Counted from the first letter of the stretch, positions 6,926 through 60,595 are shown. The stretch: 64,000 nucleotides of DNA from an uncultured Bacilli bacterium (GCA_963931065.1 OZ006970.1:139458-203457); one strand, 5' to 3'. Program-made: numbers and translations. The notes: a model not told the origin generated them from the letters alone.

Positions 6926-7021
6926 ATTTAAGCACCACCTTCATTGACAATATATTATGCATAATTATAATTAATATTTTTTCTATTTATGTTATTTAAT
7001 ACAACCTAGCAAAACCCTAAA

Positions 7022-16232: not shown

Positions 16233-17436
16233 TTGAGGGATAGTGATATAATAGTAGTGTCGAGAATGGATTTAGAAAGGAATATCTTTGATTGGCCAGT
16301 CAATCTAAATTCATTCTCGACAAATGAAATTTTAGGCTGGCCAATCAAAGATATTTTTTTAGGTTTTTTTATGATATTAGAAATTGATAATTTATTGCCA
16401 AATGAATTACGTACTATTATTAAAAAATTACAAAAATTATTAGATATGCAAGAAAATAGTAAAAGTATTATTAATGAAGTTATAGGTAATGAAAGACAAA
16501 ATATCTGCTGTCCAAAATGCAAAAGTACTAACATTGTTAAAGATGGTACTTACAAAGGCAGACAAAAAATTCAAATGTAAAGATTGTAGTAAAAAGTTTA
16601 ATGCTTTAACTAATACACCATTTCATCATACAAGGTTAACATATGGTCAAATAGAAGAATCTTATCAATGTTTAGTTGATAAACATACAATCAGAAAAAG
16701 TGCAAAAAGAATTGGAGTTAGTACCAAAACTGCTTTTACTCTGAGATTTAAATTAATAAACTGTTTAAAATTCATTAGAACTAATGCTAAATTAGAGGGT
16801 GACATGGAATTAGATGAGTACTATTTATCTATTAATTTAAAAGGAACAAAGAAAGAAAATATGCCACGTGCTTCTAAAAAAAGAAAAAGCGGTGGTTCTA
16901 GTAAAAGGGGAATAAGTAAACATAAAGCTTGTGTTACTTCAGGAATTGATGAATGTGATAATCTTTTTCTAGAGCTTGCTAGTACAGGCCCTGTTACCTC
17001 TGACATGATTAAAAAGACTATTGCACCTAAAATTGTTAATCCAAAAAAAGTTACTACCGATTGTAAAAGTTCTTATGAAAGTATCGCTAAAGAAAATAAC
17101 TGGAATCTTAAACAAGTAAAATCTGATACATATGTTGATTACGAAAGAAACAATCTTGCAAATATAAACTCAATACATTCTGAACTCACTTCTTTTCTTA
17201 GTTCTTTTCATGGCATTTCTACTAAACACCTACAAGAATATTTAGATTGGTTTGTTTATTTAAAATACCTAAATTATAGTGTTGATTATTTAGATCAAGC
17301 TAACTATTTTCAAAAATGTACTATAACAAAACAAACAGACATTAAATTTGATAATGTTTGCGACAATCACAGTATATTAGATTTCTATGATGTCTATGAA
17401 AATTATAACTACCATCCCTCAAATTCTACAACATAG
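16233..17436 (+). mobile_element. IS1595-family (ISXO2-like) transposase gene, interrupted by a frameshift in an A7 run (ORFs 16233..16580 and 16489..17436)
   Basis: N-terminal zinc finger CCPKCKSTNIVKDGTYKGRQK continues in another frame as FKCKDCSKKFNALTNT. C-terminal ISXO2-like DDE domain (HGISTKHLQEYLDWFVYLKYL). Frame switch is at gacaaaaaattc (about 16560). Element ends not resolved. Confidence 0.6.
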
Positions 17437-29634: not shown

Positions 29635-31458
29635 TTATTGTATGGTAATCTCGAAAGGTTGTTCTTTAGTACCTAGACCTCCTGTTATTATTACGTTAGA
29701 TTTTAGATTGATAGTTGGTTTAACTGCAACAGAATTTGTCGTAGATACAACATACCTACCATAATTGTCAACATAAACAGTACGAATATTATATGAATTA
29801 TAAGGTGTTAAAGTCCAATACCATATATCATTTGTATATATATCAAATTGACCAGCCATTAATTCTCCATATCTTAACAAACCCACTTTAGCATCAGTTG
29901 TTGTAACATATCCTGACATACTAGTATCTCTATATTTTGCTAATTTATAACTTGCACCGCTTCCTACTGTTCCTAGATACCATGTTGTACTATCTTCTAT
30001 CATATCACTATATGTACTATCTACATAACTATTTAAATATTCCCCATTTAAAAATGTACCAATTACACTATTAGTTGAATAATTAACTTCAATATTTGAA
30101 CTTCCAAATGCACTTGTTATAAAGGTACCAGAACTCTTTAATGGTTCGGCACTTACTATTTTTGTTCCTGTTCCATTTTCATGGCTTACTATTCTATATA
30201 GATTATTTTCATCATTTCCAAATCTTACATACTCACCACTATATCTTGTATTAAGCATAGTCCCTGATAAATTACTGTCATTATCTCCTTCTAAGCGATA
30301 GGGATTATCTAAAGTTCCATTACCATCAACGATTTTGACACTAAATTTTAGATTTATTGATGGTCTAATGCCAAATGTATAGCTTGACACAGAAGTATAG
30401 CGATTTATATTTCCAAAATTTTCAATAATTAAACATGGAGTTAAAGTCCACCACCAAAGTCCATTATTTAAATATCCATTACCATAGGTTGTTCCCGTAT
30501 AACTAGACTGATATTCATATATATTAAGTAGACCAACTGCATCAGTTACAGTCGTTGTTCCATTCGGTCTTGTTATACTTCCTAATTCTGTAGAACCCAA
30601 TGTCGCATCCCATACACTATCTGTTACGATAAAGTTTTCATAATCTCTTAAATTTCCTAGAAAACCATCTATACTAGTATCATTTAACCAGTCTTCCATA
30701 TGACTTTCTTCAAATGCACCACTATCATCATCATAACTGATTGCACTTATATTCCATTGTGTTACTAACTTAGTTGTCTTGGCATCATTATTTACAGACA
30801 CCGCTCTCCATAATTTACCAGAGTACCATATATAATTATTAGGGTCTTCTCCTGTTATGAAGGTATCTTCTCCATCATCATAAGTTGAACCATTTTCTCC
30901 TGGTTCTAATACATAATCTGCAACAGTCTCCTTTTTTGCTTCTTCAAATAAATGCCCATTACTAGGTAAACTTAAATCATTATAATCTAGCCCTACTCCT
31001 ACTCCTAATGTAATTGTTACACTACTACTAGATTCATTCTTTACTCTTATCTTATATATATTACTAGAACCAGAACTACCACTTGCTGTTAAATTAGCAC
31101 CTTTCTCCCCCATTGGTATATTTATTCCTTCTCCTGTTTTATAACCTACTTCTACACCACTAGCTAAACTTCCTTCATAATAAAAGTTAAATCTTGCTTC
31201 TCTATTATTAGGATTAGATAATGTTACTGTAAATTCTTTAGTTTCTTTCGCTCCTACTACTAACTTATTACTTTCTACATTATCTACAGTAAGCTTATAC
31301 GTTAAATTACCCGTTACTATACTAATAGCATTACCCTTTTCTTTTGATACTGTAAACATTGCATAAGAAAAGTATCCTCCTAACATTAATAGAGTTACTA
31401 TAATCATTACTATCATATATATTTTACTAAAACTTGTTTCTAATAATAACTTCTTCAT
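29635..31458 (-). CDS. secreted/surface protein, paralog 1 of a tandem-repeat family (unassigned domain family)
   Basis: Start taken at MKKLLLE (RBS gaaaggag), N-terminal signal anchor. Two internal repeats, each with the motifs GLL(N/R)xYE(Y/L), WWTLTP, G(I/V)RP(S/T)INLKS, ending GGxGT(K/L)(E/D)xP(F/Y). Paralogs at 38300..40132 and 60165..63570. Confidence 0.6.
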   Translation of the reverse strand: MKKLLLETSFSKIYMIVMIIVTLLMLGGYFSYAMFTVSKEKGNAISIVTGNLTYKLTVDNVESNKLVVGAKETKEFTVTLSNPNNREARFNFYYEGSLASGVEVGYKTGEGINIPMGEKGANLTASGSSGSSNIYKIRVKNESSSSVTITLGVGVGLDYNDLSLPSNGHLFEEAKKETVADYVLEPGENGSTYDDGEDTFITGEDPNNYIWYSGKLWRAVSVNNDAKTTKLVTQWNISAISYDDDSGAFEESHMEDWLNDTSIDGFLGNLRDYENFIVTDSVWDATLGSTELGSITRPNGTTTVTDAVGLLNIYEYQSSYTGTTYGNGYLNNGLWWWTLTPCLIIENFGNINRYTSVSSYTFGIRPSINLKFSVKIVDGNGTLDNPYRLEGDNDSNLSGTMLNTRYSGEYVRFGNDENNLYRIVSHENGTGTKIVSAEPLKSSGTFITSAFGSSNIEVNYSTNSVIGTFLNGEYLNSYVDSTYSDMIEDSTTWYLGTVGSGASYKLAKYRDTSMSGYVTTTDAKVGLLRYGELMAGQFDIYTNDIWYWTLTPYNSYNIRTVYVDNYGRYVVSTTNSVAVKPTINLKSNVIITGGLGTKEQPFEITIQ

Positions 31459-31473
31459 AAACTTCTCCTTTCT

Positions 31474-31512
31474 AAAACACAAAAAAGAATAGAATAATCC
31501 TATTCTATTCTT
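31474..31512 (-). promoter_or_regulatory. conserved 12-bp-stem hairpin plus T-run (terminator/attenuator-like) in the leader of paralog 1
   Basis: aagaatagaata-ggat-tattctattctt followed by ttttgtgtttt on the minus strand, 15 nt before the RBS. A near-identical hairpin lies at 63684-63713 upstream of paralog 3. Confidence 0.5.
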
Positions 31513-31559
31513 ACATAACAAAAGAAAGTAATATTATTACTTAAATATTTATAAAGCTG

Positions 31560-31568
31560 CCCCCCCCC
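31560..31568 (-). repeat. G9 homopolymeric tract (C9 on plus strand) upstream of paralog 1
   Basis: The only long G/C homopolymers in this AT-rich window are this one and 63759-63767. Both sit in the same conserved module upstream of paralogous genes. Confidence 0.8.
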
Positions 31569-31670
31569 ATGTAGCATTTATGATATATTTATCCATAAAA
31601 TTTACCTTCTTTCTTACTATTTTTATTAACTTAATAATATCAAAAAAATAGAACTTAAACAAGTCCTATT

Positions 31671-32405
31671 TTATCTACTTTTAATTAAAGCTATATAATT
31701 GTTAACCTTACTAGCCCAAGTAGGACTAGCAGCATATTTTGGACCAATAGATTCTGGTGTAGTTAATCCATAAGCATAATAATTACGATATAAGTTATCT
31801 AAATAACCCATAATTCCTTCATCTAGTGTAGCATATGCTTTATAACTTCCTCCACCACAACTAGGTCCACCTTTTTGACCACCTACATTATTACATTCAC
31901 GAACTAAACTACTACAAGTACCATTACATCCAGTCTCATGAAGAATAATAGCAGTTGCCATATAAGGATCAATTCCTAACTGTAAAGAATAACTTGCAAT
32001 TAAGTATCCTTTACCAGAAATAGTAGACTTTAGTGAACGATTAAGCTTATCAGCTAACTCTCCCATAGTTAATCCATCATAAACAATAGGGTCAACTGGA
32101 ACAGTATTAACTTCATCATAAGTCTTAACATCTTCTAACTCTTCTTCAATAACTACTTCTTCAACCTTTTCAATATCAGTAGTAGTTACATCTTCTACTT
32201 TATTATTAGATTCTTCTTTAGTAATATTTTTATTCTTATTATTATCTTCTTTATTACCAGCATAAGAATCATTCATTGTCACAGTTTCATAAGCTACAGT
32301 ATTCTCTTCTATTTGAAAAGCTTTATACTGTAATACTCCAGCCAAGCCTATCATAAAAACACCAATAGATGCCAACGTAAGACTCAGCTTACTAACTTTT
32401 TTCAT
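31671..32405 (-). CDS. membrane-anchored glucosaminidase-domain protein (LytD/FlgJ-type N-acetylglucosaminidase-like)
   Basis: Start at MKKVSKLSL (RBS gaaggagg). C-terminal AIILHETGCNGTCSSLVRECNNVGGQKG matches the glucosaminidase (PF01832-like) pattern. Confidence 0.5.
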   Translation of the reverse strand: MKKVSKLSLTLASIGVFMIGLAGVLQYKAFQIEENTVAYETVTMNDSYAGNKEDNNKNKNITKEESNNKVEDVTTTDIEKVEEVVIEEELEDVKTYDEVNTVPVDPIVYDGLTMGELADKLNRSLKSTISGKGYLIASYSLQLGIDPYMATAIILHETGCNGTCSSLVRECNNVGGQKGGPSCGGGSYKAYATLDEGIMGYLDNLYRNYYAYGLTTPESIGPKYAASPTWASKVNNYIALIKSR

Positions 32406-32485
32406 AGTTCCTCCTTCAAATAAGAACAATATAATTGTACCAAATATCTATATATTTGTCAAATTTGACACCCGAACCTATTATA

Positions 32486-35400
32486 TTATATGTTTTTTAT
32501 TGACTTTTTATTGTTTTTATTTCTATAAGAAATATACATCAAAGTACCACCTATTATAATCAACAATCCACCTATTAAATAAATATATGTAGCATTACTT
32601 CCTGTATTTGGTACTTCTACTGGTTTTGAATTAAACATTACTTCACTTTGAATATCTCCTGTCTCTAAAACATTAAATTCAACTACTGATGTATTTAAGA
32701 TATATCCATCTGGTGCTATTGTTTCAGTAAGAGTATATTTACCAACTGGAAGCTTTTCTATATAATGTGGAGTATTACTTGATATCCATTCTTCTACAAT
32801 ATTACCATTACTATCTCTAATTACTAAATGAGCCCCTTCTACTTCTACACTATTGGCCATATCAAGTTTACTTATATTTATCTTTGTAAAGTCATTAACA
32901 TAATTTATTATACTTACATTACTATCATCAGTAACACTAAAGTATATAGGACTATTATTAACAATTACTCCATCTGGTGTATCTAATTGTTTTAATACAT
33001 AGTCACCCAACTCTAAAGTATCACTAATATAACCATCTTTAGTAGTCTCAAACTCATCAACTACTTCTCCTGTTCTAGTCTCTAAGCTATACTTATATCC
33101 TTCTTCTGCATCTACTACTAATTTTCTATCATTAACACTAACAGTAGTAACATCATTACTAATATTAACAGTCTGAACTTTACCTGTCTCTAATACTTCA
33201 AAAGTAATTTTAGAACCCGTTCCCACATAACCAGCTGGAGCCTCTAATTCTTCTAAAATATAAATACCAGCTGATAATCTAACTTGATAAGGCTCATTTG
33301 TACTAATAAACTCTATAGAATCAAAATCTCCATTTTCTTTAGTCAATCTCATTCGAGCCCCTGCTATATATTCTCCATTCCTAGCATCTATCTTACCTAA
33401 GTTTACTATTATTGGTTTATTTTCAATTTCAAGATTAATTTCTTCTGTAGTATCTTCAATAACTAATTCATGAAAACTCTCATCTAAAATATACCCATCA
33501 GGAGCTTGTTTTTCTTTTATATAATAAGTACCAACTTCTAAAGTAGATAAATCTATACTACTTACATCAGTTAAATCTATATCTCTAATATATTCTTTAT
33601 TATTATTGTATAAGCCTAATATTGATCCTAAAATAGGCTCTTTACTTTCACTATCTATCTTTGTAACAGTAACTTTTCTTTTTTTATTAGATAATTTATA
33701 TACAAAAGTACTATCACTATTAGCATTAAAATCTATTTCTAATACTTCACTAGTTCTAACATAACCATCAGGAGCTTTAACTTCTTCTAATTTATATTTC
33801 CCATAAGGAACATTTATTTCTGTTGGAACATTACTACTTGTAAATGTTTCAACTTCATCTCCATTACTATTGGTAAGTCTCAATGTTGCATCTGCAACAT
33901 ATTCTTCAGTATCAGCATCTACTTTTCCAATATTTATAAAAGATTTAACATTTTTCATTGTTACTTGAATACTTGTAGTATTTTCATCTATCGTAAAGCT
34001 TTCTCTTTCTTTATTTAAAGCATAACCACTAGGTGCCTCTATTTCTTCTACATAATATGTACCTGGACTTAATTTATCAAGAGTATATGCTTCTTTAATA
34101 GTAGTAAATGTCTCTATCTCATCACCAATACTATTAGTAACTCTTAACTTTGCTCCACTTAAAGGATTACCTTCTTCATCAACTTTATTTATAACTACTT
34201 GATTATTTGAATTATAGAATGTTACAGTCTTAGCTTCTTCCTCTTCACCAGTAATAGTAACAGGAACTTCACTATTACTAAGAGTATACCCATTTGGAGC
34301 TTCTACTTCTATTACTTTATATTCTCCTTTAACAAGCCCTTTTATACTATGTGCACTATCATCACTAGTCCACTCATCAATAATTTGATTATCACTTACT
34401 CTTACAAGTCTTAATCTTGCCCCACTAACAAACTTATTATCTAAATCTTTTTTCTCTATCAAAACTTCATTTTTTTCGTCTTTAAAATCAACAGTAACAC
34501 TAGTATTATTTTTATCAATAGTAAATTCTTTTTCTTTACTATTTATAAAATAACCATCAGGTGCACTTACTTCTACTACTTTATAAGTACCTTCTTGCAT
34601 TTTAGAAGTATCAACTTCTACATAATCATTAGTTGTTGTTATTGTATCAACTACTTCATTATTACTATTAACTATATTTAATACTGCTCCACTAACTACA
34701 TTACCTGTATCACTATCTATTTTTCTTATTCTTACATCATACTTTGAATTAGTAATCGTACTACTAATATTTAAATCACTATCACTTATTACTACATTAG
34801 TACTCTCTTTATCTATATAATATCCATTAGGAGCTTTTACCTCTTTTATCTCATACTCTCCTGGTAATAAGTTATCTATTACATAATCCTCAGTTGTAGT
34901 AATAAAGTTTGCTACACTCTTATTTGTTGCCTTTCTAATTACTTCTATACTAGCACCTTCCAAAGGAGTATTATCACTACTATCTACCTTTTTTATTGTT
35001 AAACTTCCACTTGGCATTTTAACACTAGCAGATACGGTCTTCTGTTTAGGTACACCTACAAGTGTACTAACAACTGACTGTTGCATTGTATCTACCATAT
35101 CACTAGGAGGATCATAACTGTAAGCAACATATTCTGTATAATTTACTATCACATTTATATTTACATTTATAGGATTATCTATCTTAGATAAATCTACTCT
35201 TAATTTAAAACCTTCTCCACTATTTATAGTATTAGTACCTACTACAACATCACTACTATTAAGAACTTCAACTGCACTATTATCTATACTAACAGCATAA
35301 CTATCATAACTAACATTACTATTTACAGTTATTAAATCAGTAATTAAATATCTATTATCACTACTTAATTTAAAATCACTAGTAGAAATATTAAAACTAG

Positions 35401-36016
35401 GATTAATTGTAACAGGATTATTTTTAGCATAAACTGCCCCTGTTATTAATGGTTCTATAACACTATAATAAGAACTGTTTTTAATAACTTTTTTTTGATT
35501 AGCAGTTAAAACTCCATCAATATCATCACTAACACCACTTACCCTATCTTGATAAAACCAAATTGCAACTTGTGTTAAATAATCATCATTTTTATCATTA
35601 CCAGTTAAACTTTTATTAGGATAAGCATTTTGTAAGATATAAACATAACCTGCATCAAGAGGAACTTCATTTTTAGTAATAGTTTTAGGACTATCATTCT
35701 TTGGCCAATCTTTATCTTTTTCTAGACAATAAACTGTATATCTATTACTACCATCATAAGCATAATATGGTACTAAAGATATAATTTCATCTTCACTTAA
35801 TCCCTCACTAAATAAAGTAACCCTATCAGTAAGAATATCTCCCATACCAGTCGTTAATGTATCAGGTAACTCCGTTGGAATAGCATATGAACTTGCTACT
35901 GTTTTACCTAAAAATATAATCATAATAATTGAAAAGAAGATACTAACTGTAACTTTCATCCAATCATTTTCACTTTTCTTAAATAAACTACCAATCTTAC
36001 CTAACATATTCATCAC
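32486..36016 (-). CDS. sortase-anchored surface adhesin: N-terminal thioester domain, multiple CnaB/SpaA-type Ig-like repeats, VPNTG sorting signal
   Basis: 1176 aa. N-terminal region has TVYCLEKD (Cys) and TQVAIWFYQD (Gln), the thioester-domain hallmarks. At least 7 repeats carry the GEYK(I/V)(V/I)EVxAP(N/D)GY motif. C-terminus is VPNTG plus hydrophobic stretch plus KNNKKS. Confidence 0.7.
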   Translation of the reverse strand: MMNMLGKIGSLFKKSENDWMKVTVSIFFSIIMIIFLGKTVASSYAIPTELPDTLTTGMGDILTDRVTLFSEGLSEDEIISLVPYYAYDGSNRYTVYCLEKDKDWPKNDSPKTITKNEVPLDAGYVYILQNAYPNKSLTGNDKNDDYLTQVAIWFYQDRVSGVSDDIDGVLTANQKKVIKNSSYYSVIEPLITGAVYAKNNPVTINPSFNISTSDFKLSSDNRYLITDLITVNSNVSYDSYAVSIDNSAVEVLNSSDVVVGTNTINSGEGFKLRVDLSKIDNPINVNINVIVNYTEYVAYSYDPPSDMVDTMQQSVVSTLVGVPKQKTVSASVKMPSGSLTIKKVDSSDNTPLEGASIEVIRKATNKSVANFITTTEDYVIDNLLPGEYEIKEVKAPNGYYIDKESTNVVISDSDLNISSTITNSKYDVRIRKIDSDTGNVVSGAVLNIVNSNNEVVDTITTTNDYVEVDTSKMQEGTYKVVEVSAPDGYFINSKEKEFTIDKNNTSVTVDFKDEKNEVLIEKKDLDNKFVSGARLRLVRVSDNQIIDEWTSDDSAHSIKGLVKGEYKVIEVEAPNGYTLSNSEVPVTITGEEEEAKTVTFYNSNNQVVINKVDEEGNPLSGAKLRVTNSIGDEIETFTTIKEAYTLDKLSPGTYYVEEIEAPSGYALNKERESFTIDENTTSIQVTMKNVKSFINIGKVDADTEEYVADATLRLTNSNGDEVETFTSSNVPTEINVPYGKYKLEEVKAPDGYVRTSEVLEIDFNANSDSTFVYKLSNKKRKVTVTKIDSESKEPILGSILGLYNNNKEYIRDIDLTDVSSIDLSTLEVGTYYIKEKQAPDGYILDESFHELVIEDTTEEINLEIENKPIIVNLGKIDARNGEYIAGARMRLTKENGDFDSIEFISTNEPYQVRLSAGIYILEELEAPAGYVGTGSKITFEVLETGKVQTVNISNDVTTVSVNDRKLVVDAEEGYKYSLETRTGEVVDEFETTKDGYISDTLELGDYVLKQLDTPDGVIVNNSPIYFSVTDDSNVSIINYVNDFTKINISKLDMANSVEVEGAHLVIRDSNGNIVEEWISSNTPHYIEKLPVGKYTLTETIAPDGYILNTSVVEFNVLETGDIQSEVMFNSKPVEVPNTGSNATYIYLIGGLLIIIGGTLMYISYRNKNNKKSIKNI

Positions 36017-36053
36017 CTATTATAAATAAAGTATATCACAAAAAAAATAGTAA

Positions 36054-38207
36054 TTAAATACTATTTTTTAACAAACTAAGACTAACTTTTTTCTTATCTA
36101 AATCTATAGAATCTACATAACAATCAACTATATCACCAACACTAAATAAATCGCTAGGATTTTTAATATACTCATTAGTTAATTTTGAAATATGAGCAAG
36201 ACCATCATTTTTTAAACCTATATCAATAAATAGACCAAAATCGACTACATTACGTACTGTTCCTTGTAATTTATCACCTATTTTTAAATCTTCTATATGT
36301 AAGATATCACTTCTTAAAATTGGTTGTGGATAATTATCACGTAAATCCCTCATAGGTTTTTCTAAAGACTCTATAATATCAGTCAAAGTATATTTATCAA
36401 TATCAATTTCTTTACTAAGACTCTCTATATCTAAACCATTAAGTTTATTAATAAGTTCACTACTACCTAAATCATTAACACTAAATCCTAAATAATTAAG
36501 AAGTTTAAGAGTCTTATCATAACTTTCAGGATGAATAGAAGTTTTATCTAAAGGATTATTACCATCAAATATTCTAAGAAAACCGACTGATTGTTCATAA
36601 ACCTTATCAGTAACTCCTTTAATACTATGAAGCTCATCTCTATTTTTAAATTTACCATATTTATCTCTAAAAGAAATAATATTATCTATTACTTTTTTAT
36701 TAAGACCAGAAATATATTTTAATAGTGAAGGACTAGCAGTGTTTATATTAACACCAACACCATTAACTGCTTTACTAACAACAAAGTTTAATGATTCATC
36801 TAGTTTTTTAACAGGTACATCATGTTGATAAAGACCAACACCTATACTTTTAGGATCTATTTTAACTAGTTCAGATAAAGCATCTTGTACACGTCTTCCG
36901 ATACTAACTGCACTTCTTTTTTCTACAGTCAAATCAGGAAACTCTTCTATTGCAAGTTTACTAGCTGAATAAACTGATGCCCCTGCTTCACTTACAATTA
37001 TATAAGAAACATCCTTTTTAGCATCTTTAATTGCCTCTGCTACAAAAGCTTCACTTTCACGAGATGCTGTACCATTACCAATGGCGATTACATCTATATT
37101 GTATTTATCAATAAGTTCAAGTAACTTTTTCTTAGAACCTTCTATATCATTATGAGGTTCTGTTGGATAGATTACATCAATATCTAACACTTTACCAGTC
37201 TTATCTAAAACAGCAAGTTTACATCCTGTTCTAAAAGCAGGGTCATATCCTAGCACAATTTTATCTTTTAATGGAGGAGTAAGTAAAAGTTTCTCTACAT
37301 TAGTAGAAAAATTATCTATAGCACGTACCTCACCTTTTTCTTTAAGTTCAGCCCTAATCTCTCTATCTACACTAGGAAGTATTAAACGTTTAAGACTATC
37401 ATTAATTGCCTCAAGTATTATTTGATAACAAAAACTCTCTTTATTTTTAATTACTTTAGTTTCTAAATACTTAACTATTTTTTCTACATCATAATCTAAT
37501 TTAACAGAAAGTACTCCTTCTTTTTCTCCTCTATTAATCGCTAAAATTCGATGTGGTTTAATATATTTAACTGTTTCACTAAAATCATAATAGTTACTAT
37601 AAGTCTTATTAACATCTTCTATATTCTTCTTTAATTTACTAACAATAACTCCTTCTTTAAAGATATAACTTCTAATCCATTTACGATAATATGCATTATC
37701 ACTAATCCATTCAGCGATTATATACTTTGCCCCAGTAATAGCATCTTCAACACTCTTAACTTTATCAGAAATGTATTTAGAAGCAATTAGATTAATATCT
37801 CCCTTAGTAGGACAAGACATAATAATTTTAGCAAGAGGCTCCAATCCATTATTAATAGCATCAGTCGCTTTAGTCTTTTTCTTCTCTTTATAAGGGCGAT
37901 ACAAATCATCTACTTCAACAAGTTTAATACATTTCATAATAGAAGATTTTAACTCTTCTGTAAGTAGTCCTTTCTCATCAATTAATCTAATAACATCTTC
38001 TTTTCTTTTCATTAAATTAACTTGATACTCGTAAACATCATTAATAGATTTAATAACTTCTTCATTTAAAGCACCTGTCGCTTCTTTGCGGTATCTTGCA
38101 ATAAAAGGAATAGTATTACCTTCCTCTAATAATTTTAAAACAGTCATAACTTGTTTTTTACTAATATTTAAATCTTTACTAATCCCATCAATAATTACTT
38201 CATTCAT
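36054..38207 (-). CDS. tex: Tex-like RNA-binding transcription accessory protein
   Basis: 717 aa with YqgF/RNaseH-like, HhH and C-terminal S1 domains (GDKLQGTVRNVVDFGLFIDIG...AHISKL). Confidence 0.85.
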   Translation of the reverse strand: MNEVIIDGISKDLNISKKQVMTVLKLLEEGNTIPFIARYRKEATGALNEEVIKSINDVYEYQVNLMKRKEDVIRLIDEKGLLTEELKSSIMKCIKLVEVDDLYRPYKEKKKTKATDAINNGLEPLAKIIMSCPTKGDINLIASKYISDKVKSVEDAITGAKYIIAEWISDNAYYRKWIRSYIFKEGVIVSKLKKNIEDVNKTYSNYYDFSETVKYIKPHRILAINRGEKEGVLSVKLDYDVEKIVKYLETKVIKNKESFCYQIILEAINDSLKRLILPSVDREIRAELKEKGEVRAIDNFSTNVEKLLLTPPLKDKIVLGYDPAFRTGCKLAVLDKTGKVLDIDVIYPTEPHNDIEGSKKKLLELIDKYNIDVIAIGNGTASRESEAFVAEAIKDAKKDVSYIIVSEAGASVYSASKLAIEEFPDLTVEKRSAVSIGRRVQDALSELVKIDPKSIGVGLYQHDVPVKKLDESLNFVVSKAVNGVGVNINTASPSLLKYISGLNKKVIDNIISFRDKYGKFKNRDELHSIKGVTDKVYEQSVGFLRIFDGNNPLDKTSIHPESYDKTLKLLNYLGFSVNDLGSSELINKLNGLDIESLSKEIDIDKYTLTDIIESLEKPMRDLRDNYPQPILRSDILHIEDLKIGDKLQGTVRNVVDFGLFIDIGLKNDGLAHISKLTNEYIKNPSDLFSVGDIVDCYVDSIDLDKKKVSLSLLKNSI

Positions 38208-38299
38208 ATAATCACTCTTTCTAACAATATTATTTTAATATAAATAACAAAATGATTAAAGAAAAAGAGAATAATTTGACGTAAAAAGAACTAAGATAT

Positions 38300-40132
38300 T
38301 TATCCTAGTTCTATTATAAAAGGATCTAATTTAGTACCTGTACCTCCAGTTATTATGACATTTTCTTTAAGACTTAATGTTGGTTTTATTGCATTAGTTG
38401 TTGTTGGAGCGACATTAAAACTACTACCATATTGTCCAATACGGCGCATTACATACTGGTTATTCGGAGTTATAAGCCAATATGATGTATTATTTTCTTC
38501 TCTATCAAATTGGCCTGCCATTAACTCCCCTAATCTTAATAACCCTACTGTAGCATTTGTTGTATTTGAAGTTAATGTATTACCAGTTTCATCTGTGTAT
38601 TTAGCTAACTTATATGAAATGCCACCTTCACTTACACCTCCTAGATACCAAATTGTATCATCTACTATCATGGCACTATAATTATTGTCAACATAATTTG
38701 TTAAGTATTCACCATTAAGAAAACTTCCTATTGTATTTGTACTTGAAAAAGCTATATCATCACCAAAAGGAGTTACTTTAAATGTTTCAGAGTCTTTAAG
38801 GGAAATATCACTTGTTATTTTTGTTAAACTATTAGTCTCATGACTCACTATTCTATAAAGATTATTATTATCAGTTCCAAACTTAACATATTCTCCACTA
38901 TAACGAGTATTAAGTTTTACACCATTTAGATCTTTATCATTATCTCCTTCAAGGCGATAAGGATCATCTAATGTTCCATTGCCATCTACAATCTTAACAT
39001 TAGATTTTAAATTTATGGAAGGACGTATCCCTAAAGCATTTTTACCATCAAAACAATTACTATTTCCCAAATTATCTATTTCATTCATACTTATATCACT
39101 ATATGGTGTTAATATCCACCAATGAAGACCATTATTTAAATAACCATCACTATTGCTTGTTCCTTTAAAACTCTCTTGATATTCATATAAATTAAGTAAC
39201 CCTACTGTAGCAGTTACAATAGTACCACTATCACTAGGTCTTTTTACATTTCCTAAACTAGAAGAATCCGTTGTTGCATTCCATTTAGAATTTGTTACAA
39301 TAAAATTATCAACATCTCTTAAATTATATAAAAAACCATCTACTGTCATATCATTTAACCATTCTTCCATATAACTTCCTTCAAAAACTGTGTTATCCTT
39401 GGAATAAGGAATTGTACTTATATCCCATTGAGTTACTACTTTAGCTGTTTTTTCTTCATTATTAACACTAACTATCCTCCATAGTTTTCCACTATACCAA
39501 AGATAATTATTAGGAAATTGTCCTGTTGTAAAAGTATCTACTGTATCGTTATATATATTATCCTTACTGATATTACTAAGTGCAACTGTTCCTATTTCTC
39601 CTTCATGGGTTATTTCTTCTAATATGTGACCATTACTTGGTAAAGATAAATCATTATAATCTAACCCTACCTCTACACCTAAATTAATCGTTACACTACT
39701 TCCTGAATTATTTATTACTCTTATTACATAAGTATTACTTGAACCTACTGTTCCTGTTTTTTCTAAATTTATCCCTTTTTCGGTAGGTAAAACATTTGTT
39801 TCTTCTTTATTTATATATCCTATTTTAATGTTAGTTGGTAAATCATCCAAATAATAAAAATTGAATCTTGCTTTTCTATTATTAGGGTTACTTAACTCAA
39901 CTTTAAAATCTTTTACCGTATTTGAAGGAACAGTTAGAGTATTATTTTCTATATCATCAATAGTGAGATTATAAATTAAATTACCTGTTACAATCGTTAT
40001 AGCATTATTCTTTTCTTTTGTTACTGTAAACATAGCATAAGAGAAATATCCTCCTAATACTAATAAAATTACTATAATCATTACTATTATATACATTTTA
40101 GTAAAACTTACCTCTAAGAATAATTTTTTCAT
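38300..40132 (-). CDS. secreted/surface protein, paralog 2 of the tandem-repeat family
   Basis: N-terminal 60 aa nearly identical to paralog 1. Same internal repeat motifs (GLLNLYEYQES, HWWILTP, LGIRPSINLKSN, GGTGTKLDPF). Confidence 0.6.
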   Translation of the reverse strand: MKKLFLEVSFTKMYIIVMIIVILLVLGGYFSYAMFTVTKEKNNAITIVTGNLIYNLTIDDIENNTLTVPSNTVKDFKVELSNPNNRKARFNFYYLDDLPTNIKIGYINKEETNVLPTEKGINLEKTGTVGSSNTYVIRVINNSGSSVTINLGVEVGLDYNDLSLPSNGHILEEITHEGEIGTVALSNISKDNIYNDTVDTFTTGQFPNNYLWYSGKLWRIVSVNNEEKTAKVVTQWDISTIPYSKDNTVFEGSYMEEWLNDMTVDGFLYNLRDVDNFIVTNSKWNATTDSSSLGNVKRPSDSGTIVTATVGLLNLYEYQESFKGTSNSDGYLNNGLHWWILTPYSDISMNEIDNLGNSNCFDGKNALGIRPSINLKSNVKIVDGNGTLDDPYRLEGDNDKDLNGVKLNTRYSGEYVKFGTDNNNLYRIVSHETNSLTKITSDISLKDSETFKVTPFGDDIAFSSTNTIGSFLNGEYLTNYVDNNYSAMIVDDTIWYLGGVSEGGISYKLAKYTDETGNTLTSNTTNATVGLLRLGELMAGQFDREENNTSYWLITPNNQYVMRRIGQYGSSFNVAPTTTNAIKPTLSLKENVIITGGTGTKLDPFIIELG

Positions 40133-40182
40133 AACACTCCTCCTTCATACAGTATTAAGATATAATTGTTCACAATTATATC

Positions 40183-40863
40183 TTAATAACCAACTCTTAA
40201 TATTTTAAAAGTGGCATTCAAACTACTACCATAATTTATCGCTTCCCTACTTGTTTCAAATAATAAATCAAAATCATATAATCTATCAAAACCTATATTT
40301 CCACCTCTATCTAACACTATCGCTTTAAAACTACCTATCTTACTATTACTTACTTCTATAACTGTCCCAAAAGGAATACATTTATCACTAGCAAGTATTC
40401 TTAAAGAACCATAAGTAGAATCTTCATAATAAATAGTTTCACTTATATTATACTCTGATGCAGTTAAATCACCTATATCAGAGCCATAACCACTCATAGT
40501 ACCAGTAAAAGTAGAGCCTACTGTAATAGATGGAATATATACTTCCTCTTTAGGAGTTTCATATTCTATTTTCTCATCTTTTCCTATAACTTCATCTTCT
40601 TTAGGTCCCTCTACTACTTTTGGTACTTCCTCTACTACAGATTTCTCTTCTTCTTTAACTTCTTCTTTTTCTTCTAAAGAAACATCTTCAAGAGGTACAA
40701 CTTCTATAACTTCTTCTTTTACAATAGCATCACTATTTACATAAGTAATCTTATTATTTACATCTATATTTTTTACATCAGGTTTAGTGGTACTAACAAG
40801 TAAACAACACCCCATAAATATAATAGCATTAATAATATAAATAGTTTTTCTCATAAATATCAC
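40183..40863 (-). CDS. 3D-domain (RlpA-like double-psi beta-barrel) cell-wall-associated protein with signal peptide
   Basis: Signal peptide, acidic E/K/V-rich linker, and C-terminal GTMSGYG...ASDKCIPFGTVIEV...AIVLDRGGNIGFDRLD matching 3D-domain proteins such as YocH/YabE. Confidence 0.5.
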   Translation of the reverse strand: MIFMRKTIYIINAIIFMGCCLLVSTTKPDVKNIDVNNKITYVNSDAIVKEEVIEVVPLEDVSLEEKEEVKEEEKSVVEEVPKVVEGPKEDEVIGKDEKIEYETPKEEVYIPSITVGSTFTGTMSGYGSDIGDLTASEYNISETIYYEDSTYGSLRILASDKCIPFGTVIEVSNSKIGSFKAIVLDRGGNIGFDRLYDFDLLFETSREAINYGSSLNATFKILRVGY

Positions 40864-42562: not shown

Positions 42563-44062
42563 TTAAAGCTTTTTTAAAATGTTACATAGAGATTTTTTTA
42601 AAATGTTACATTTATTATATAATATACCTCTAGAGAAAGAGGTGTTTTATTTTGATAAAAAACAAGAAAAAAGCTTTAGAACTATTAAAGCAAAAAAATA
42701 ATGGTGAAATTAAAATCACCTTTAGTGAAATTTCTAATCAAACTGGTTATTCTAGAATGCATTTAAATCGTTTGATTAAAGAAGTTGAAAAAAAGGATAT
42801 TGATAACCTGTTAGTTCATGGACTCACAGGTAAAAATTCTAATAATTCCGCTCCCAGCCAAGAGATTGAATATATTAAGAATTTTAAAAATCAATATCCA
42901 GTTATTAGTATATCACAGTTTATGGATATTTATCATGAAGATGTTATTTGGAATAAAGAAAAGCAAGCCGATGTAAAAAAATATAATCTTAAAGTTAGAA
43001 GTAAATCTTTCTTTCAACAATTATACAAAAAAGAAGGATGGAAAAGTCCAGTTAAACACAAAAGTTTTAAAAATGATTCTAATCAACATCCTTTAAGAGA
43101 TCCTTCTCCACGAAGAGGAATACTTATTATGACAGATGGTACTCCACACGACTGGTTTGGTAATGGAAAACTATTTTCATTGCATATGACTTTAGATGAT
43201 GCTACTGATGAAATACTTTCAGGATGGTTTATGCCTACAGAATGTCAATTAGGTTATTGTTATGCTTTTAAAATAATGTTTGAAAAATATGGACTACCAC
43301 AATCAATATATTCAGATAGAACAACAATTTTATGGAATCAAAAAGATGGTGAATTAACTCAAGTTGGAAGAATGTTAGATGAACTCGGTATTGAATTAAT
43401 ATACGCAAATACACCACAAGCTAAAGGTAAAATTGAAAACAAAAACAAAGTTGTACAAAACAGATTGTTAAACGATATTAAACGATTTAATATTAAAACA
43501 TATGATGAATTAAATAAATGGTTTAACGATTATTACATTGATTATCTAAATAAAAAGTTCTCCTATCCACCACTAGAAGAAGAGACAGATTTTATTCCTT
43601 TAGATAATACAGACTTATCTACAATAATGTGCATTAAAGTAGATAGAAAAATATTAAATGGCAACATGATATCCATTAATAATAATTATTATATCCCTAT
43701 AAATAGTGATGGCAGTGACTTTGTATTTTATAAAGGAACAACTGTTGAAGTTTGGCAAGATGTATTTACTAATGATATTAGAATTTTTAAAAACAATAAA
43801 ATATATAATACAAGAAAAATTGAAGGACACAGGGTTGATATGAAGAAGAAAGAACAAAAAATAATTGATGACCAAAAACAATTAGAAGTATTATTGAGAG
43901 AAAGAGATGAAAGATTAAAAGCAAGGGCGAAACATAGTTGAGTTCATCTTGACCCTTGCTTTTTAACTTTCATAAATTATAATTATTCTTCAAACAAAGT
44001 TCGCCTTTGTTTGTTATCAATTTAATAATTTAAAAATGTAACATTTCTAAAAAATCTTAACA
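42563..44062 (+). mobile_element. IS element (IS1202/ISNCY-like) flanked by 18-bp direct repeats
   Basis: Direct repeat actacttattttaaactt at 42545-42562 and 44063-44080. Imperfect terminal IRs of about 28 bp (gttaaagcttttttaaaatgttacat... vs RC gttaagattttttagaaatgttacat...). Single 429-aa DDE transposase. Long target duplications are characteristic of the IS1202 group. Confidence 0.7.
42652..43941 (+). CDS. DDE transposase (rve/integrase-core type; IS1202/ISNCY-like)
   Basis: N-terminal HTH (ISNQTGYSRMHLNRLIKE), then catalytic core with MTDGT...HMTLDDATDE...YSDRTT. 429 aa. Confidence 0.65.
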   Translation: MIKNKKKALELLKQKNNGEIKITFSEISNQTGYSRMHLNRLIKEVEKKDIDNLLVHGLTGKNSNNSAPSQEIEYIKNFKNQYPVISISQFMDIYHEDVIWNKEKQADVKKYNLKVRSKSFFQQLYKKEGWKSPVKHKSFKNDSNQHPLRDPSPRRGILIMTDGTPHDWFGNGKLFSLHMTLDDATDEILSGWFMPTECQLGYCYAFKIMFEKYGLPQSIYSDRTTILWNQKDGELTQVGRMLDELGIELIYANTPQAKGKIENKNKVVQNRLLNDIKRFNIKTYDELNKWFNDYYIDYLNKKFSYPPLEEETDFIPLDNTDLSTIMCIKVDRKILNGNMISINNNYYIPINSDGSDFVFYKGTTVEVWQDVFTNDIRIFKNNKIYNTRKIEGHRVDMKKKEQKIIDDQKQLEVLLRERDERLKARAKHS

Positions 44063-50732: not shown

Positions 50733-51284
50733 TTATATAAATAAATAATCTGGCTTTTTATAAGGCTCATCATAACTTTTATCTTTCATATATTTATCTA
50801 TTAATACTATCTCATCTTGTTCTAAACTCTTAGGAACATCTATAACTCTTTGATTTCTAGAACCTCTATAATAAATATTTAAACTTTTCTCTTCTAAGAT
50901 AAATTTACCATCTACTAAGACATCTACTTCACTAAGTAATTTCTTCATCTTAGGATTTTTAAGCATTGCTTCATAAGTATACCCTGTATAACACCATACA
51001 TTAAGTCCCATAGAATGAGCTGCTTTGCTAATTTCATAACATGCTTCACTCTGGCATACTGGATCTCCTCCAGATAAGGTAATACCATCTTGATTTTTAA
51101 TAGTCTTTAACTCATCTATTACTTCACTAACATCAAACAAAGCACCACCATCAAAGTCATGAGTACCAGGATTTTGACACCCTGGACATGCATGAGGACA
51201 CCCTTGTGTCCAAATAACAGTTCTTACCCCTTCTCCATCTACAATAGAATCAGGTTGTAATGATGCCGCTAGTCTTATTTTCAT
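50733..51284 (-). CDS. nrdG: anaerobic ribonucleoside-triphosphate reductase activating protein (copy 1)
   Basis: Radical-SAM CPHACPGC cluster motif; 183 aa. Confidence 0.85.
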   Translation of the reverse strand: MKIRLAASLQPDSIVDGEGVRTVIWTQGCPHACPGCQNPGTHDFDGGALFDVSEVIDELKTIKNQDGITLSGGDPVCQSEACYEISKAAHSMGLNVWCYTGYTYEAMLKNPKMKKLLSEVDVLVDGKFILEEKSLNIYYRGSRNQRVIDVPKSLEQDEIVLIDKYMKDKSYDEPYKKPDYLFI

Positions 51285-51285
51285 C

Positions 51286-51456
51286 CTACTTACCTTCTTT
51301 TTTATTTTTTACAACATCATTTAAACCACTATGTTTAACACGGTCAGCTTCTTCAGCACGTTTACCATTATTAAATCTATCAACATCACCTACTAAATAA
51401 CCTGTAATACGTCTAATCCTTTCAAATTTTTGTCCTTCTCCAACTATTTTTTTCAT
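51286..51456 (-). CDS. stand-alone NrdD C-terminal glycyl-radical domain peptide (56 aa)
   Basis: Not in the ORF track; found by manual translation. MKKIVGEGQKFERIRRITGYLVGDVDRFNNGKRAEEADRVKHSGLNDVVKNKKEGK. RxxGY...FNxGKxxExxxRxxH is the canonical NrdD glycyl-radical C-terminus. Own strong RBS (gaaggagga). Different frame from nrdD; its stop lies 1 nt before the nrdG start. Confidence 0.6.
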   Translation of the reverse strand: MKKIVGEGQKFERIRRITGYLVGDVDRFNNGKRAEEADRVKHSGLNDVVKNKKEGK

Positions 51457-51482
51457 ATATAATTCCTCCTTCTTATTTTTTA

Positions 51483-60590: not shown

Positions 60591-60595
60591 TATAG

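What the first reader, a model, noticed from the sequence alone, without database searches (positions are those of the whole stretch)
29635..40132. Cell-envelope cluster with a paralogous tandem-repeat surface-protein family, thioester adhesin, glucosaminidase and 3D-domain protein
Three members of an unassigned secreted-protein family (29635..31458, 38300..40132, 60165..63570) share a near-identical N-terminal signal anchor and two internal repeat domains with conserved motifs (GLLxxYEY, WWTLTP, GxRPxINLKS, GGxGTKxxPF). They flank a 1176-aa thioester-domain/CnaB-repeat adhesin with a non-canonical VPNTG sorting signal, a glucosaminidase-domain protein and a 3D-domain protein. This looks like an adhesion and cell-wall remodelling locus. 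The family's function is unknown, and the paralogy plus variable loops suggests antigenic or receptor-binding diversity.
Basis: partly seen in the sequence, partly recalled or inferred. Interest (0 to 1): 0.6.

Follow-up and report, generated by a model that had tools for sequence, protein, structure and literature searches.

The report
Orphaned retroelement-diversified lectin-like surface proteins
The repeated "unassigned" surface proteins are two-domain, lectin-like binding proteins that related gut bacteria hypermutate with a diversity-generating retroelement. In this genome the retroelement was not found, two copies have decayed target loops, and the copy with fresh-looking loops is split by an insertion sequence.

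Summary
The three family members exist at the stated coordinates, but the family is not unassigned. Each protein has an N-terminal signal/anchor helix, a beta-sandwich and two tandem DUF6273 domains. In gut phages this domain is a known target of diversity-generating retroelements (DGRs).

Relatives from uncultured gut Bacilli carry complete chromosomal DGR cassettes: target, template repeat (TR), two small ORFs and a reverse transcriptase. One TR rewrites the loop between WWTLTP and GVRPSINLKS in both domains, and mismatches fall almost only at TR adenines.

In this window only the third copy (C) carries that signature. It has two 79-nt islands of about 60% GC and 14% A in a 27% GC genome. 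Their differences from a relative's TR lie at adenines (16/26 versus 3-5/53). C is split by a 1,497-bp IS4-like element.

Copies A and B, which flank the adhesin, have AT-rich loops that are not templated. No TR or RT lies in the window. Neither the RT nor the Avd-like protein was found on the 1.52-Mb contig, so these are probably orphaned targets.

The "adhesion/cell-wall locus" is not a conserved unit. The thioester adhesin and its VPNTG motif are real, the glucosaminidase call is marginal, and the 3D-domain call fails. Verdict: a new member of a known kind, of moderate interest.

The parts
29635..31458 (-). Paralog A, 607 aa: signal/anchor helix, beta-sandwich (residues ~55-157) and two DUF6273 domains (~186-395 and ~396-607)
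   Evidence: Domain 1 model has pLDDT 94.3. Foldseek matches the DUF6273 N-terminal domain of PDB 9qa6 at E 3.3e-7.
30355..30435 (-). A domain-1 loop at the VR position; decayed (CLIIENFGNINRYTSVSSYTFGIRPSI)
   Evidence: GC 0.27, A 0.35. 35/53 mismatches at non-adenine positions of the L005 TR, which is random-like. No TR-like partner found.
29722..29802 (-). A domain-2 loop at the VR position; decayed
   Evidence: GC 0.28. 36/53 non-adenine mismatches.
38300..40132 (-). Paralog B, 610 aa, same architecture as A
   Evidence: No Pfam hit at E<=0.1.
39023..39103 (-). B domain-1 loop at the VR position; decayed
   Evidence: GC 0.26, A 0.38. 36/53 non-adenine mismatches.
38384..38464 (-). B domain-2 loop at the VR position; decayed
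   Evidence: GC 0.35, A 0.38. 36/53 non-adenine mismatches.
62103..63570 (-). Paralog C, 5' part (called ORF 62089..63570, 493 aa): a different N-terminal module, DUF6273 domain 1 and the start of domain 2
62391..62469 (-). C variable region 1: DGR-type, GC-rich and adenine-poor
   Evidence: GC 0.64, GC3 0.78, A 0.14 against 0.31/0.15/0.40 for the rest of the gene. 16/26 mismatches at L005-TR adenines against 3/53 elsewhere, Fisher p 1.5e-7.
60596..62092 (+). IS4-like insertion sequence (1,497 bp) interrupting paralog C; transposase ORF 60727..61902
   Evidence: Terminal inverted repeats at 60596-60612 and 62077-62093. NF033591 scores 86 bits, below its 152 cutoff; DDE_Tnp_1 scores 20.6 bits. 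Excision restores the ORF.
60586..60595 (.). Target-site duplication GTTCCTATAG, copy 1
62093..62102 (.). Target-site duplication GTTCCTATAG, copy 2
60165..60595 (-). Paralog C, 3' part: the rest of DUF6273 domain 2 (called ORF 60165..60533, 122 aa)
60248..60326 (-). C variable region 2: DGR-type
   Evidence: GC 0.59, GC3 0.70, A 0.15. 16/26 mismatches at TR adenines against 5/53 elsewhere, p 2e-6. It has the same GGCGTCCGGCC 3' end as VR1, and that sequence occurs nowhere else in the window.
32486..36016 (-). Neighbour, not shown to be linked: 1176-aa thioester-domain adhesin with nine SpaA/CnaB repeats and a VPNTG sorting signal
   Evidence: VPNT[S/K] also ends TED/SpaA proteins that sit next to sortases in L003 and L008.
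31671..32429 (-). Neighbour: membrane-anchored glucosaminidase-domain protein (marginal hit)
   Evidence: PF01832, 30.9 bits against a cutoff of 30.2.
40183..40863 (-).
   Evidence: PF06725, 14.4 bits against 23.8, E 0.046. No PDB relative.

Best explanation
The family consists of exported, probably surface-exposed binding proteins. Each has a signal/anchor helix, a beta-sandwich spacer and two tandem DUF6273 domains, which the literature describes as C-type-lectin-like.

In this bacterial lineage (uncultured small-genome gut Bacilli near 'Candidatus Onthousia') the family is the target of a chromosomal DGR. An RNA copy of one template repeat is reverse-transcribed with errors at adenines, and the cDNA replaces the roughly 80-nt stretch encoding the loop between W[WY]TLTP and GVRPSxNLKS. 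This happens independently in each of the two domains and in copies scattered around the chromosome. The result is two hypervariable binding faces per protein. This part is shown in relatives.

In this window, paralog C carries two such retroelement-written variable regions, but an IS4-like insertion has inactivated it. Paralogs A and B have lost both the templated sequence and the GC-rich 3' end, and now evolve as ordinary genes. These points are shown directly by the sequence.

The DGR cassette itself appears to be absent from this 1.52-Mb genome, so all copies would be frozen, orphaned targets. This last step is inferred from negative searches.

The adjacency to the thioester adhesin, the glucosaminidase and MurE is gene-order coincidence in a compact, strand-biased genome, not a functional module.
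For: **1. Domain identity**
- Pfam DUF6273 matches A, C, D and the L004 target.
- The AF2 model of A domain 1 (pLDDT 94.3) matches only the DUF6273 N-terminal domain of the T. ramosa IgA peptidase in the PDB (E 3.3e-7, TMq 0.66). It also matches 14 phage proteins in BFVD, mostly annotated DUF6273.
- DUF6273 is described as a C-lectin-like DGR target with the VR at its C-terminus (PMC10743442, bioRxiv 10.1101/2024.10.15.618418, PMC11792537).

**2. Position-specific hypervariability**
- Across 118 homologues, single positions with about 3 bits of entropy alternate with invariant ones in exactly these two loops.
- Both loops share one scaffold, YSSSxVRxVxxxGxAxxxSPSxxxGVRPS.

**3. Complete cassettes in relatives**
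- L004 has the target, the TR, ORFs of 115 and 114 aa, and a 304-aa RT (RVT_1, E 3e-17; IGNYTSQ and YMDD motifs). VR2 has 10 mismatches, all at TR adenines (0/52 elsewhere). VR1 has 17 at adenines and 1/52 elsewhere.
- L008 has the same layout between housekeeping genes.

**4. Activity in nature**
- L008 and L009 encode an identical RT protein. In the 1,113 nt encoding the two DUF6273 domains, 33 of 34 differences lie in the two 79-nt VRs.
- P0092 and P0096 are 99.6% identical outside the VRs. VR2 differs at 8 variable positions and VR1 at none.

**5. This window**
- C's loops are the only 81-nt windows in 64 kb with GC >= 0.5. The window mean is 0.272 (sd 0.058) and the maximum is 0.667, at 62390.
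- C's differences from the L005 TR, which shares the GGCGTCCGGC end, fall at adenines: 16/26 against 3/53 and 5/53.
- The loops of A and B are compositionally ordinary and random-like against either TR.

**6. Absence of the machinery**
- There is no TR-like sequence in the window or in two further 21-kb stretches of the same genome, L003 and L006. The same search did find the L004 TR.
- None of the 120 best RT homologues (down to 42% identity) and none of the only 33 Avd-like homologues lies on a 1,519,355-bp contig.
- A, B, both C fragments and D are each a single sequence variant across 6-8 contigs.
Against: - The cognate TR of this genome was never seen. The adenine-specificity test for C used a TR from another MAG, so 3-5 non-adenine mismatches remain unexplained.
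- I could not scan the whole 1.52-Mb contig. A diverged, fragmented or extrachromosomal RT would be missed.
- The 6-8 contigs with identical VRs may all come from one cohort or one strain.
- The Avd-like ORF scores below Pfam's cutoff (19.4 bits against 40).
- No ligand is known for any member.
- Surface location is inferred from the N-terminal helix alone.
Confidence: 0.72

Rival explanations
1. The DGR is still active in this genome. An RT and TR lie elsewhere on the chromosome, or on a phage or plasmid, and C (before the IS hit) and D are live remote targets, while A and B have escaped.
For: - The VRs of C and D are still strongly adenine-depleted and GC-rich, with no visible drift towards the genome's composition.
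- Remote targets more than 10 kb from any RT are the rule in relatives.
- Only about 100 kb of the 1.52 Mb was inspected directly.
Against: - No RT or Avd-like homologue was found on the 1,519,355-bp contig.
- No VR variants of C or D exist within 90% clusters across 6-8 contigs.
- The VRs of D are shared nearly unchanged with proteins about 95% identical to it, P0007 and P0013.
- C is already a pseudogene.
Confidence: 0.2
2. This is an ordinary paralogous surface-protein family diversified only by point mutation, recombination and positive selection on loops. No retroelement is involved.
For: - A and B, the two copies in the reported interval, look exactly like this.
- P0002 is an exact mosaic of D and A, which could reflect recombination between paralogs.
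Against: - It cannot explain 79-nt islands of 60% GC and GC3 0.7-0.8 in a genome with GC3 of 0.15.
- It cannot explain the identical scaffold in two domains that are otherwise 30% identical.
- It cannot explain adenine-specific TR/VR mismatches next to an RT in relatives.
Confidence: 0.04
3. The stretch 29635..40863 is a functional adhesion and cell-wall remodelling operon. In it the DUF6273 proteins cooperate with the thioester adhesin, the glucosaminidase and a 3D-domain hydrolase.
For: - All genes are co-directional with gaps of 28-212 bp.
- Family members also lie within about 5 kb of a sortase and/or a TED/SpaA protein in L003, L004 and L008.
Against: - Tex and MurE are interleaved.
- Nearly every gene in the window is on this strand.
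- Three of seven family loci have no sortase, SpaA or hydrolase gene within 10 kb.
- The 3D assignment fails and the glucosaminidase is marginal.
- The family proteins have no C-terminal sorting signal.
Confidence: 0.08

Closest known systems
DUF6273-domain DGR targets of gut phages: 'tentaclins' and Mtd-like targets of phages nd4/nd12, Faecalibacterium prophages Lelie/CP11/Roos/Pioen, and Toutatisvirus
   Same: - The same Pfam domain, with the VR at the C-terminal end of the domain.
- An AAC-rich TR.
- One TR serving two VRs.
- Fold matches to phage DUF6273 proteins (PMC10743442, PMC11792537, bioRxiv 10.1101/2024.10.15.618418).
   Different: - Here the cassette is chromosomal, flanked by housekeeping genes in L008.
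- The two VRs lie in one polypeptide, in tandem DUF6273 domains.
- The targets carry a signal/anchor helix and a beta-sandwich rather than phage tail or capsid modules.
- There are several scattered paralogs per genome.
- In this genome the RT was not found.
Classical DGR variable proteins with a C-type-lectin fold: Bordetella phage Mtd, Treponema denticola TvpA with its remote targets, and Legionella LdtA
   Same: - Mutagenic retrohoming at TR adenines.
- The VR lies at the C-terminal end of a ligand-binding domain.
- Multiple non-adjacent targets, as in Treponema.
- Multi-VR genes have precedent: Wu et al. report one gene with three VRs and one with three tandem FGE-sulfatase domains (PMC5758913).
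   Different: - No detectable sequence similarity to them, and no significant Foldseek similarity.
- The accessory protein is only weakly bAvd-like, and the cassette has an extra ORF of about 111-115 aa.
N-terminal DUF6273 domain of the Thomasclavelia ramosa IgA peptidase (PDB 9qa6; PMC12402451)
   Same: The only solved structure that matches the domain model (E 3.3e-7, TMq 0.66). It is also a surface protein of a gut Firmicute.
   Different: There it is a single, non-diversified domain fused to an M64 peptidase and anchored by SPXTG. Sequence identity is 17%.
Thioester-domain (TIE-type) sortase-anchored adhesins such as Cpa, SfbI/FbaB and SpaA-type pilins. This comparison applies to the neighbouring 1176-aa protein only.
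   Same: A TED domain with Cys (YCLE) and TQVAIW, nine CnaB/SpaA repeats with matches to SpyCatcher-type CnaB2 structures, and a C-terminal sorting signal followed by a TM segment and a basic tail.
   Different: The sorting motif is VPNTG rather than LPXTG. VPNT[G/S/K] appears to be the lineage's norm. The sortase is not in the window.

Membership tests
Pfam DUF6273 (PF19789) | HMM score at or above the gathering cutoff of 23.5 bits | tested here: met
   A 25.3 bits, D 36.2, L004 target 41.6. C is just below at 22.6 and B has no hit at E<=0.1. Most of the 120 closest homologues are pre-annotated PF19789.
Pfam DUF6273 (PF19789) | Fold shared with proteins of known DUF6273 assignment | tested here: met
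   The domain-1 model (pLDDT 94.3) matches the N-terminal domain of 9qa6 at E 3.3e-7, and BFVD 'DUF6273 domain-containing' proteins at E 1.7e-7 to 8e-4.
C-type-lectin fold (as in Mtd/TvpA) | Significant structural match to a solved CLec or FGE-type protein | tested here: inconclusive
DGR variable (target) protein | A VR paired with a TR that differs from it only at TR adenines | tested here: met
   Met for relatives: L004 VR2 10/27 adenine against 0/52 other, L004 VR1 17/27 against 1/52, L008 VR1 11/26 against 1/53. For window paralog C only a TR from another MAG could be used: 16/26 against 3/53 and 16/26 against 5/53. Not met for A and B (35-36/53 non-adenine mismatches).
DGR variable (target) protein | Cognate TR present in the same genome | tested here: not met
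   No TR-like sequence in the 64-kb window, L003 or L006. The same search did detect the L004 TR. The rest of the 1.52-Mb contig could not be scanned.
DGR variable (target) protein | DGR-clade reverse transcriptase ([ILV]GxxxSQ and YxDD motifs) in the same genome | tested here: not met
   Present in relatives: L004 has IGNYTSQ and YMDD with RVT_1 at 3e-17, and L008 has P0287. None of the 120 best RT homologues is on the 1,519,355-bp contig. A fragment scoring under about 225 bits would not have been listed.
DGR variable (target) protein | Accessory variability determinant (Avd) next to the RT | tested here: inconclusive
   The 114-aa ORF in L004 matches bAvd over its full length, but at 19.4 bits against a cutoff of 40. 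It has only 33 homologues, none on this genome's contig.
DGR variable (target) protein | IMH at the 3' end of the VR and a downstream hairpin | not tested
   A shared GC-rich 3' end (GGCGTCCGGCC) is present in both VRs of C and mutated in A and B. No structural or functional test was done.
DGR variable (target) protein | VR-restricted variation between otherwise identical genes in natural populations | tested here: met
   Met for relatives: L008 against L009, 33 of 34 differences in the VRs; also P0092 against P0096. Not seen for this species, where all copies are singleton clusters on 6-8 contigs.
TasA/camelysin-type proteins with a SipW-cognate signal peptide | Match to TIGR04088 or Peptidase_M73, or a TasA-like fold for the N-terminal domain | tested here: not met
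   No NCBIfam or Pfam hit at E<=10. The best Foldseek matches for the N-terminal sandwich are generic (GOLD and Fim-type, E>=6.5e-3). The resemblance of SYAMFTV and SWAVFNY to TasA's TWAAFND is from my memory only.
Thioester-domain sortase-anchored adhesin (neighbour 32486..36016) | TED domain with Cys and TQxA Gln, CnaB/SpaA repeats, and a C-terminal sorting signal | tested here: met
   TED 37.7 bits against 22, SpaA 420 bits in 9 stretches, Gram_pos_anchor 29.5 against 20. The TQXA model scores 24.1, below its 30.4 cutoff, but TQVAIW and YCLE are visible in the sequence.
3D domain (PF06725; neighbour 40183..40863) | HMM score at or above 23.8 bits | tested here: not met
   14.4 bits, E 0.046. 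No PDB relative.
IS4 family insertion sequence (60596..62092) | DDE transposase matching a family model, terminal inverted repeats, and a target-site duplication | tested here: inconclusive
   NF033591 scores 86.1 bits (E 2.5e-24), below its equivalog cutoff of 152. DDE_Tnp_1 scores 20.6 against 23. The 17-nt inverted repeats (82% complementary) and the 10-bp duplication are present.

The most novel reading that the evidence does not exclude
This lineage of reduced-genome gut Bacilli may run a chromosomal, trans-acting DGR that writes two independent binding sites into each of several scattered double-lectin surface proteins. That would be a bivalent, antibody-like repertoire. This complete genome may then record the aftermath of losing the retroelement: one target recently frozen (D), one frozen and hit by an IS (C), and two fully ameliorated (A, B). 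If so, it offers a natural time series of VR decay. It would also imply that the proteins keep a function after diversification stops.
Probability: 0.35. Interest if true: 0.6.

Novelty: new member of a known kind. Interest (0 to 1): 0.45.

Why it matters
DGRs are the only known prokaryotic system for targeted protein hypermutation, and gut microbes hold most of them. DUF6273 targets have so far been described mainly in gut phages.

This case adds four things:
- A chromosomal version in uncultured small-genome Bacilli.
- One template repeat that rewrites two tandem domains of one protein.
- A multi-copy target family.
- A complete genome in which the targets remain but the retroelement was not found.

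Practically, it means these "hypothetical" genes should be annotated as DGR variable proteins. A short GC-rich, adenine-poor island inside a gene of an AT-rich genome is a simple flag for orphaned DGR targets, which RT-centred DGR finders miss. It does not open a new kind of biology.

Tried and rejected
1. **TasA/SipW-type signal peptide and fibre-forming N-domain.** I suspected this from memory of TasA's N-terminus. No NCBIfam or Pfam match appeared at E<=10, and no TasA-like fold match appeared. Dropped.
2. **Full-length AF2 model of A.** With 118 close homologues it was unusable beyond the N-terminal sandwich (pLDDT 42). A single-domain run with 50%-identity representatives worked.
3. **Profile search of the family against PDB sequences.** No hits at E<=10.
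5. **Scan of viral contigs with the TR pattern.** No hits, so nothing suggests the cassette is phage-borne.
6. **Search for a different, AT-rich TR for the loops of A and B.** Only the conserved NLKS-coding flank matched.
7. **Functional link between the family and sortase/SpaA genes.** The genes are adjacent in four loci and not in three. Left as an observation.
8. **Looking 10 kb past the window end for the cassette.** L006 holds HtrA, Abi_2, phospholipase C and an IS110 element, but no RT.
9. **P0002 as evidence of recombination between paralogs.** It is a 100%-exact D/A/D mosaic on a 9-kb contig, so an assembly chimera is at least as likely.

Full report
**What is at the coordinates**

The window is about 27% GC and almost every gene is on the minus strand. 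ORFs at 29635..31458 (A, 607 aa), 38300..40132 (B, 610 aa) and 60165..63570 (C) belong to one family, and tblastn finds no other copy in the window.

A and B are 58-60% identical along their whole length, including the N-terminus. C shares only the C-terminal two thirds (61-69% identity) and has a different N-terminal 200 residues.

C is not intact. A 1,497-bp element at 60596..62092 interrupts it. The element has 17-nt terminal inverted repeats, a 391-aa DDE transposase ORF (closest to IS4 models but below their cutoffs) and a 10-bp target duplication, GTTCCTATAG. Deleting the element and one copy of the duplication restores a 632-aa ORF.

Each protein contains an internal duplication. For A, domain 1 against domain 2 gives 30% identity and E 4e-11.

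**The neighbours**

Read along the minus strand, the gene order is MurE, a 226-aa protein, B, Tex, a 1176-aa adhesin, a 252-aa glucosaminidase-domain protein, A, and a P-type ATPase.

- **Adhesin.** It has a thioester domain, nine SpaA/CnaB repeats, and a Gram-positive anchor match over VPNTG followed by a TM segment and a basic tail.
- **Glucosaminidase.** The hit only just passes (30.9 bits against 30.2).
- **'3D domain'.** The hit fails (14.4 bits against 23.8) and there is no PDB relative.
- **Sortase.** None is in the window. In the same genome, about 140 kb from A and B by the record coordinates, a sortase sits beside a 498-aa TED/SpaA protein that ends in VPNTS. A relative has a SpaA protein ending in VPNTK next to a sortase. 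VPNT[G/S/K] therefore looks like the lineage's sorting motif.

**What the family is**

Pfam places A, and most of its homologues, in DUF6273. The family is large: more than 3,200 proteins at 90% clustering, and 1,189 clusters at 50% identity with E<=1e-3. The double-domain module appears behind various N-termini.

A full-length AF2 model was poor except for the N-terminal helix and a beta-sandwich at residues 55-157. A model of domain 1 built on diverse representatives was confident (pLDDT 94.3, pTM 0.91). Its only significant PDB match is the N-terminal DUF6273 domain of the Thomasclavelia ramosa IgA peptidase, 9qa6 (E 3.3e-7). In the viral structure library it matches 14 gut-phage proteins at E<=1e-3, mostly annotated DUF6273, and one annotated 'Receptor Binding Protein' at E 8.8e-3.

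Three papers describe DUF6273 as a C-type-lectin-like domain that is a recurrent target of diversity-generating retroelements, with the variable region at its C-terminal end (PMC10743442, PMC11792537, bioRxiv 10.1101/2024.10.15.618418).

**The DGR lead and its test**

Column entropy over 118 homologues shows a distinctive pattern. Single positions with about 3 bits alternate with invariant positions. This occurs only in the loop between W[WY]TLTP and G[VI]RPSxNLKS, and it occurs in both domains. Both loops share one scaffold, YSSSxVRxVxxxGxAxxxSPSxxxGVRPS, although the domains are otherwise only about 30% identical.

At the DNA level, the two loops of C are GC-rich islands.

| Region | GC | GC3 | A |
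|---|---|---|---|
| C loop 1 | 0.64 | 0.78 | 0.14 |
| C loop 2 | 0.59 | 0.70 | 0.15 |
| Rest of C | 0.31 | 0.15 | 0.40 |

These two islands are the only 81-nt windows in the whole 64 kb with GC >= 0.5. With 60-nt windows the only other places reaching 0.5 are a tRNA-Gly at 15728..15801 and one spot inside nrdD (about 58181).

From the VRs I guessed a template repeat with AAC at the variable codons and scanned one genome per species. Two MAGs of 'uncultured Bacilli' matched.

L004 holds a complete cassette on one strand:
- a family member as the target;
- 79 nt of TR encoding STSNVRNVNNNGNVNNNSPNNANGAR;
- ORFs of 115 and 114 aa, the second weakly bAvd-like;
- a 304-aa reverse transcriptase with IGNYTSQ and YMDD.

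The mismatch pattern is adenine-specific. VR2 differs from the TR at 10 positions, all TR adenines (0 of 52 other positions). VR1 differs at 17 adenines and at 1 other position.

A second cassette, L008, comes from a 1.29-Mb genome and has the same layout between LtaS and RluB/PolC, so it is chromosomal.

Two observations show the system is active in nature. L008 and L009 encode the identical RT protein, yet 33 of the 34 differences in the 1,113 nt encoding the two DUF6273 domains fall inside the two 79-nt VRs. P0092 and P0096 are 99.6% identical outside the VRs and differ at eight variable positions of VR2 only. The two VRs are therefore rewritten independently.

**State of the copies in this window**

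The TR in L005 ends in GGCGTCCGGC, as do the VRs of C. Mismatches of each copy against that TR are as follows.

| Copy | Mismatches at TR adenines | Mismatches at other positions | Fisher p |
|---|---|---|---|
| C VR1 | 16/26 | 3/53 | 1.5e-7 |
| C VR2 | 16/26 | 5/53 | 2e-6 |
| D VR1 | 17/26 | 11/53 | 1.6e-4 |
| D VR2 | 14/26 | 9/53 | 1.3e-3 |
| A and B (all four loops) | 10-15/26 | 35-36/53 | not computed |

D (P0009) is a fourth paralog about 120 kb from C (about 145 kb from B) in the same genome. It shows the same pattern more weakly and also has GC-rich islands.

A and B are different. Their loops have the genome's own composition and contain residues that NNC codons cannot encode (E, K, M, Q). 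They match either TR no better than chance, have lost the GC-rich 3' end, and have no TR-like partner anywhere in the sequence I hold. Only a faint skeleton survives, for example IR.V in A domain 2. They are best read as former targets that have drifted.

**Is the retroelement in this genome?**

The window matches a 1,519,355-bp contig (ERZ21564551, s19725.ctg025008c). From its name I read it as a circular long-read assembly, but I did not verify that.

- No TR-like sequence occurs in the window or in two further 21-kb stretches of the genome. The same search did recover the L004 TR.
- None of the 120 best homologues of the L004 RT (97% down to 42% identity) lies on a contig of that length.
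- None of the only 33 homologues of the Avd-like protein does either.
- A, B, both fragments of C, and D are each a single sequence variant on 6-8 contigs, with no VR variants inside their 90% clusters.
- The VRs of D are nearly unchanged in proteins about 95% identical to it.

I therefore think the cassette has been lost and the copies are orphaned. I could not scan the whole contig, so I put this part at about 0.6-0.7.

**Is the 'cluster' a unit?**

Family members lie near a sortase and/or a TED/SpaA protein in four loci: this window, L003, L004 and L008. In L011, L012 and L013 they sit alone among housekeeping genes, with neither surface-protein genes nor an RT within 10 kb, and they still have GC-rich VRs. 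With Tex and MurE interleaved here, I see no evidence for an adhesion or cell-wall operon. The copies look like scattered remote targets.

**Comparison with what is known, and novelty**

Mechanistically this is a standard DGR. The target domain is already known from gut phages. Multiple remote targets are known from Treponema. Genes with several VRs or several tandem diversified domains have been reported once each (PMC5758913).

What is new:
- the host lineage;
- the chromosomal setting of a DUF6273 target;
- the regular two-VR, one-TR design across a large family;
- a genome in which targets at different stages of decay persist without a detectable retroelement.

I file it as a new member of a known kind, interest 0.45.

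**Limits**

- The ligand is unknown.
- Surface exposure is inferred from the N-terminal helix. The site [ST]-[YW]-A could be a signal-peptidase site, so the protein may be released rather than anchored.
- The cognate TR of this genome was not seen.

Noticed in passing
window 36016..32486 C-terminus; L003:14933-16429(-); L008:1498-3060(+): Three TED/SpaA-type surface proteins of this lineage end in VPNTG, VPNTS and VPNTK respectively, followed by a hydrophobic segment and a basic tail. The latter two sit directly beside small sortase genes. VPNTx may be the lineage-specific sortase motif.
   Followed up: partly
L004 ~6150-6060(-), L005 ~6950-7040(+), L008 ~9100-9190(+): Directly 3' of the TR, the three cassettes share a conserved non-coding stretch: CATTTCCT(T/C)TTAAAAC(C/T)TAG...TATAG.ATAG.TAAAAGGAACAG.TAATTTCCTTGTG. 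It may be the structured spacer of the DGR RNA needed for priming. No fold or covariation analysis was done.
   Followed up: no
P0002 (ENA contig of 9,182 bp) against window A and L003 D: P0002 is a 100%-exact mosaic. Residues 1 to about 150 equal D, about 151 to 465 equal A, and about 466 to the end equal D. It is either a recombinant between paralogs in another strain or a short-read assembly chimera.
   Followed up: partly
window 50733..53813 and 56727..59410: There are two separate pairs of anaerobic ribonucleotide reductase (NrdD, 776 and 712 aa) and activase (183 and 182 aa). Between them lie thymidine kinase, dUTPase and two unassigned ORFs. This is an unusual duplication for a 1.5-Mb genome.
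   Followed up: no
window 10488..11780, 16489..17436, 42652..43941; L006 2953-4155; L003 16718-18259: Besides the IS in paralog C there are several further transposase-like ORFs. IS110 and IS66 types are annotated in the flanking loci. The three in the window were only read by eye, and 42652..43941 has only weak HTH hits. The genome seems rich in IS elements for its size.
   Followed up: no
window 12976..15069 and 12609..12989: A 697-aa ABC transporter has an N-terminus that reads like a C39 peptidase domain (bacteriocin-type exporter). A small membrane ORF follows it. Next to them are a tRNA-Gly (15728..15801) and an HTH regulator. Read from the translation only.
   Followed up: no
L008 against L009, target gene nt 90-723: Apart from the VRs, the two alleles of the DGR target differ at 58 positions, all confined to the N-terminal beta-sandwich module. 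The rest of the gene is nearly identical. The N-module may be exchanged or under separate diversifying pressure.
   Followed up: no
window A residues 30-52, invariant in 118 homologues: The segment just after the hydrophobic helix (FSYAMFTVSKEKGNAISIVTGNL) is almost invariant across the family, with invariant K39 and E40. That is more conserved than a plain signal-peptide cleavage region would need. Its function is unknown, and the TasA-like idea found no support.
   Followed up: partly
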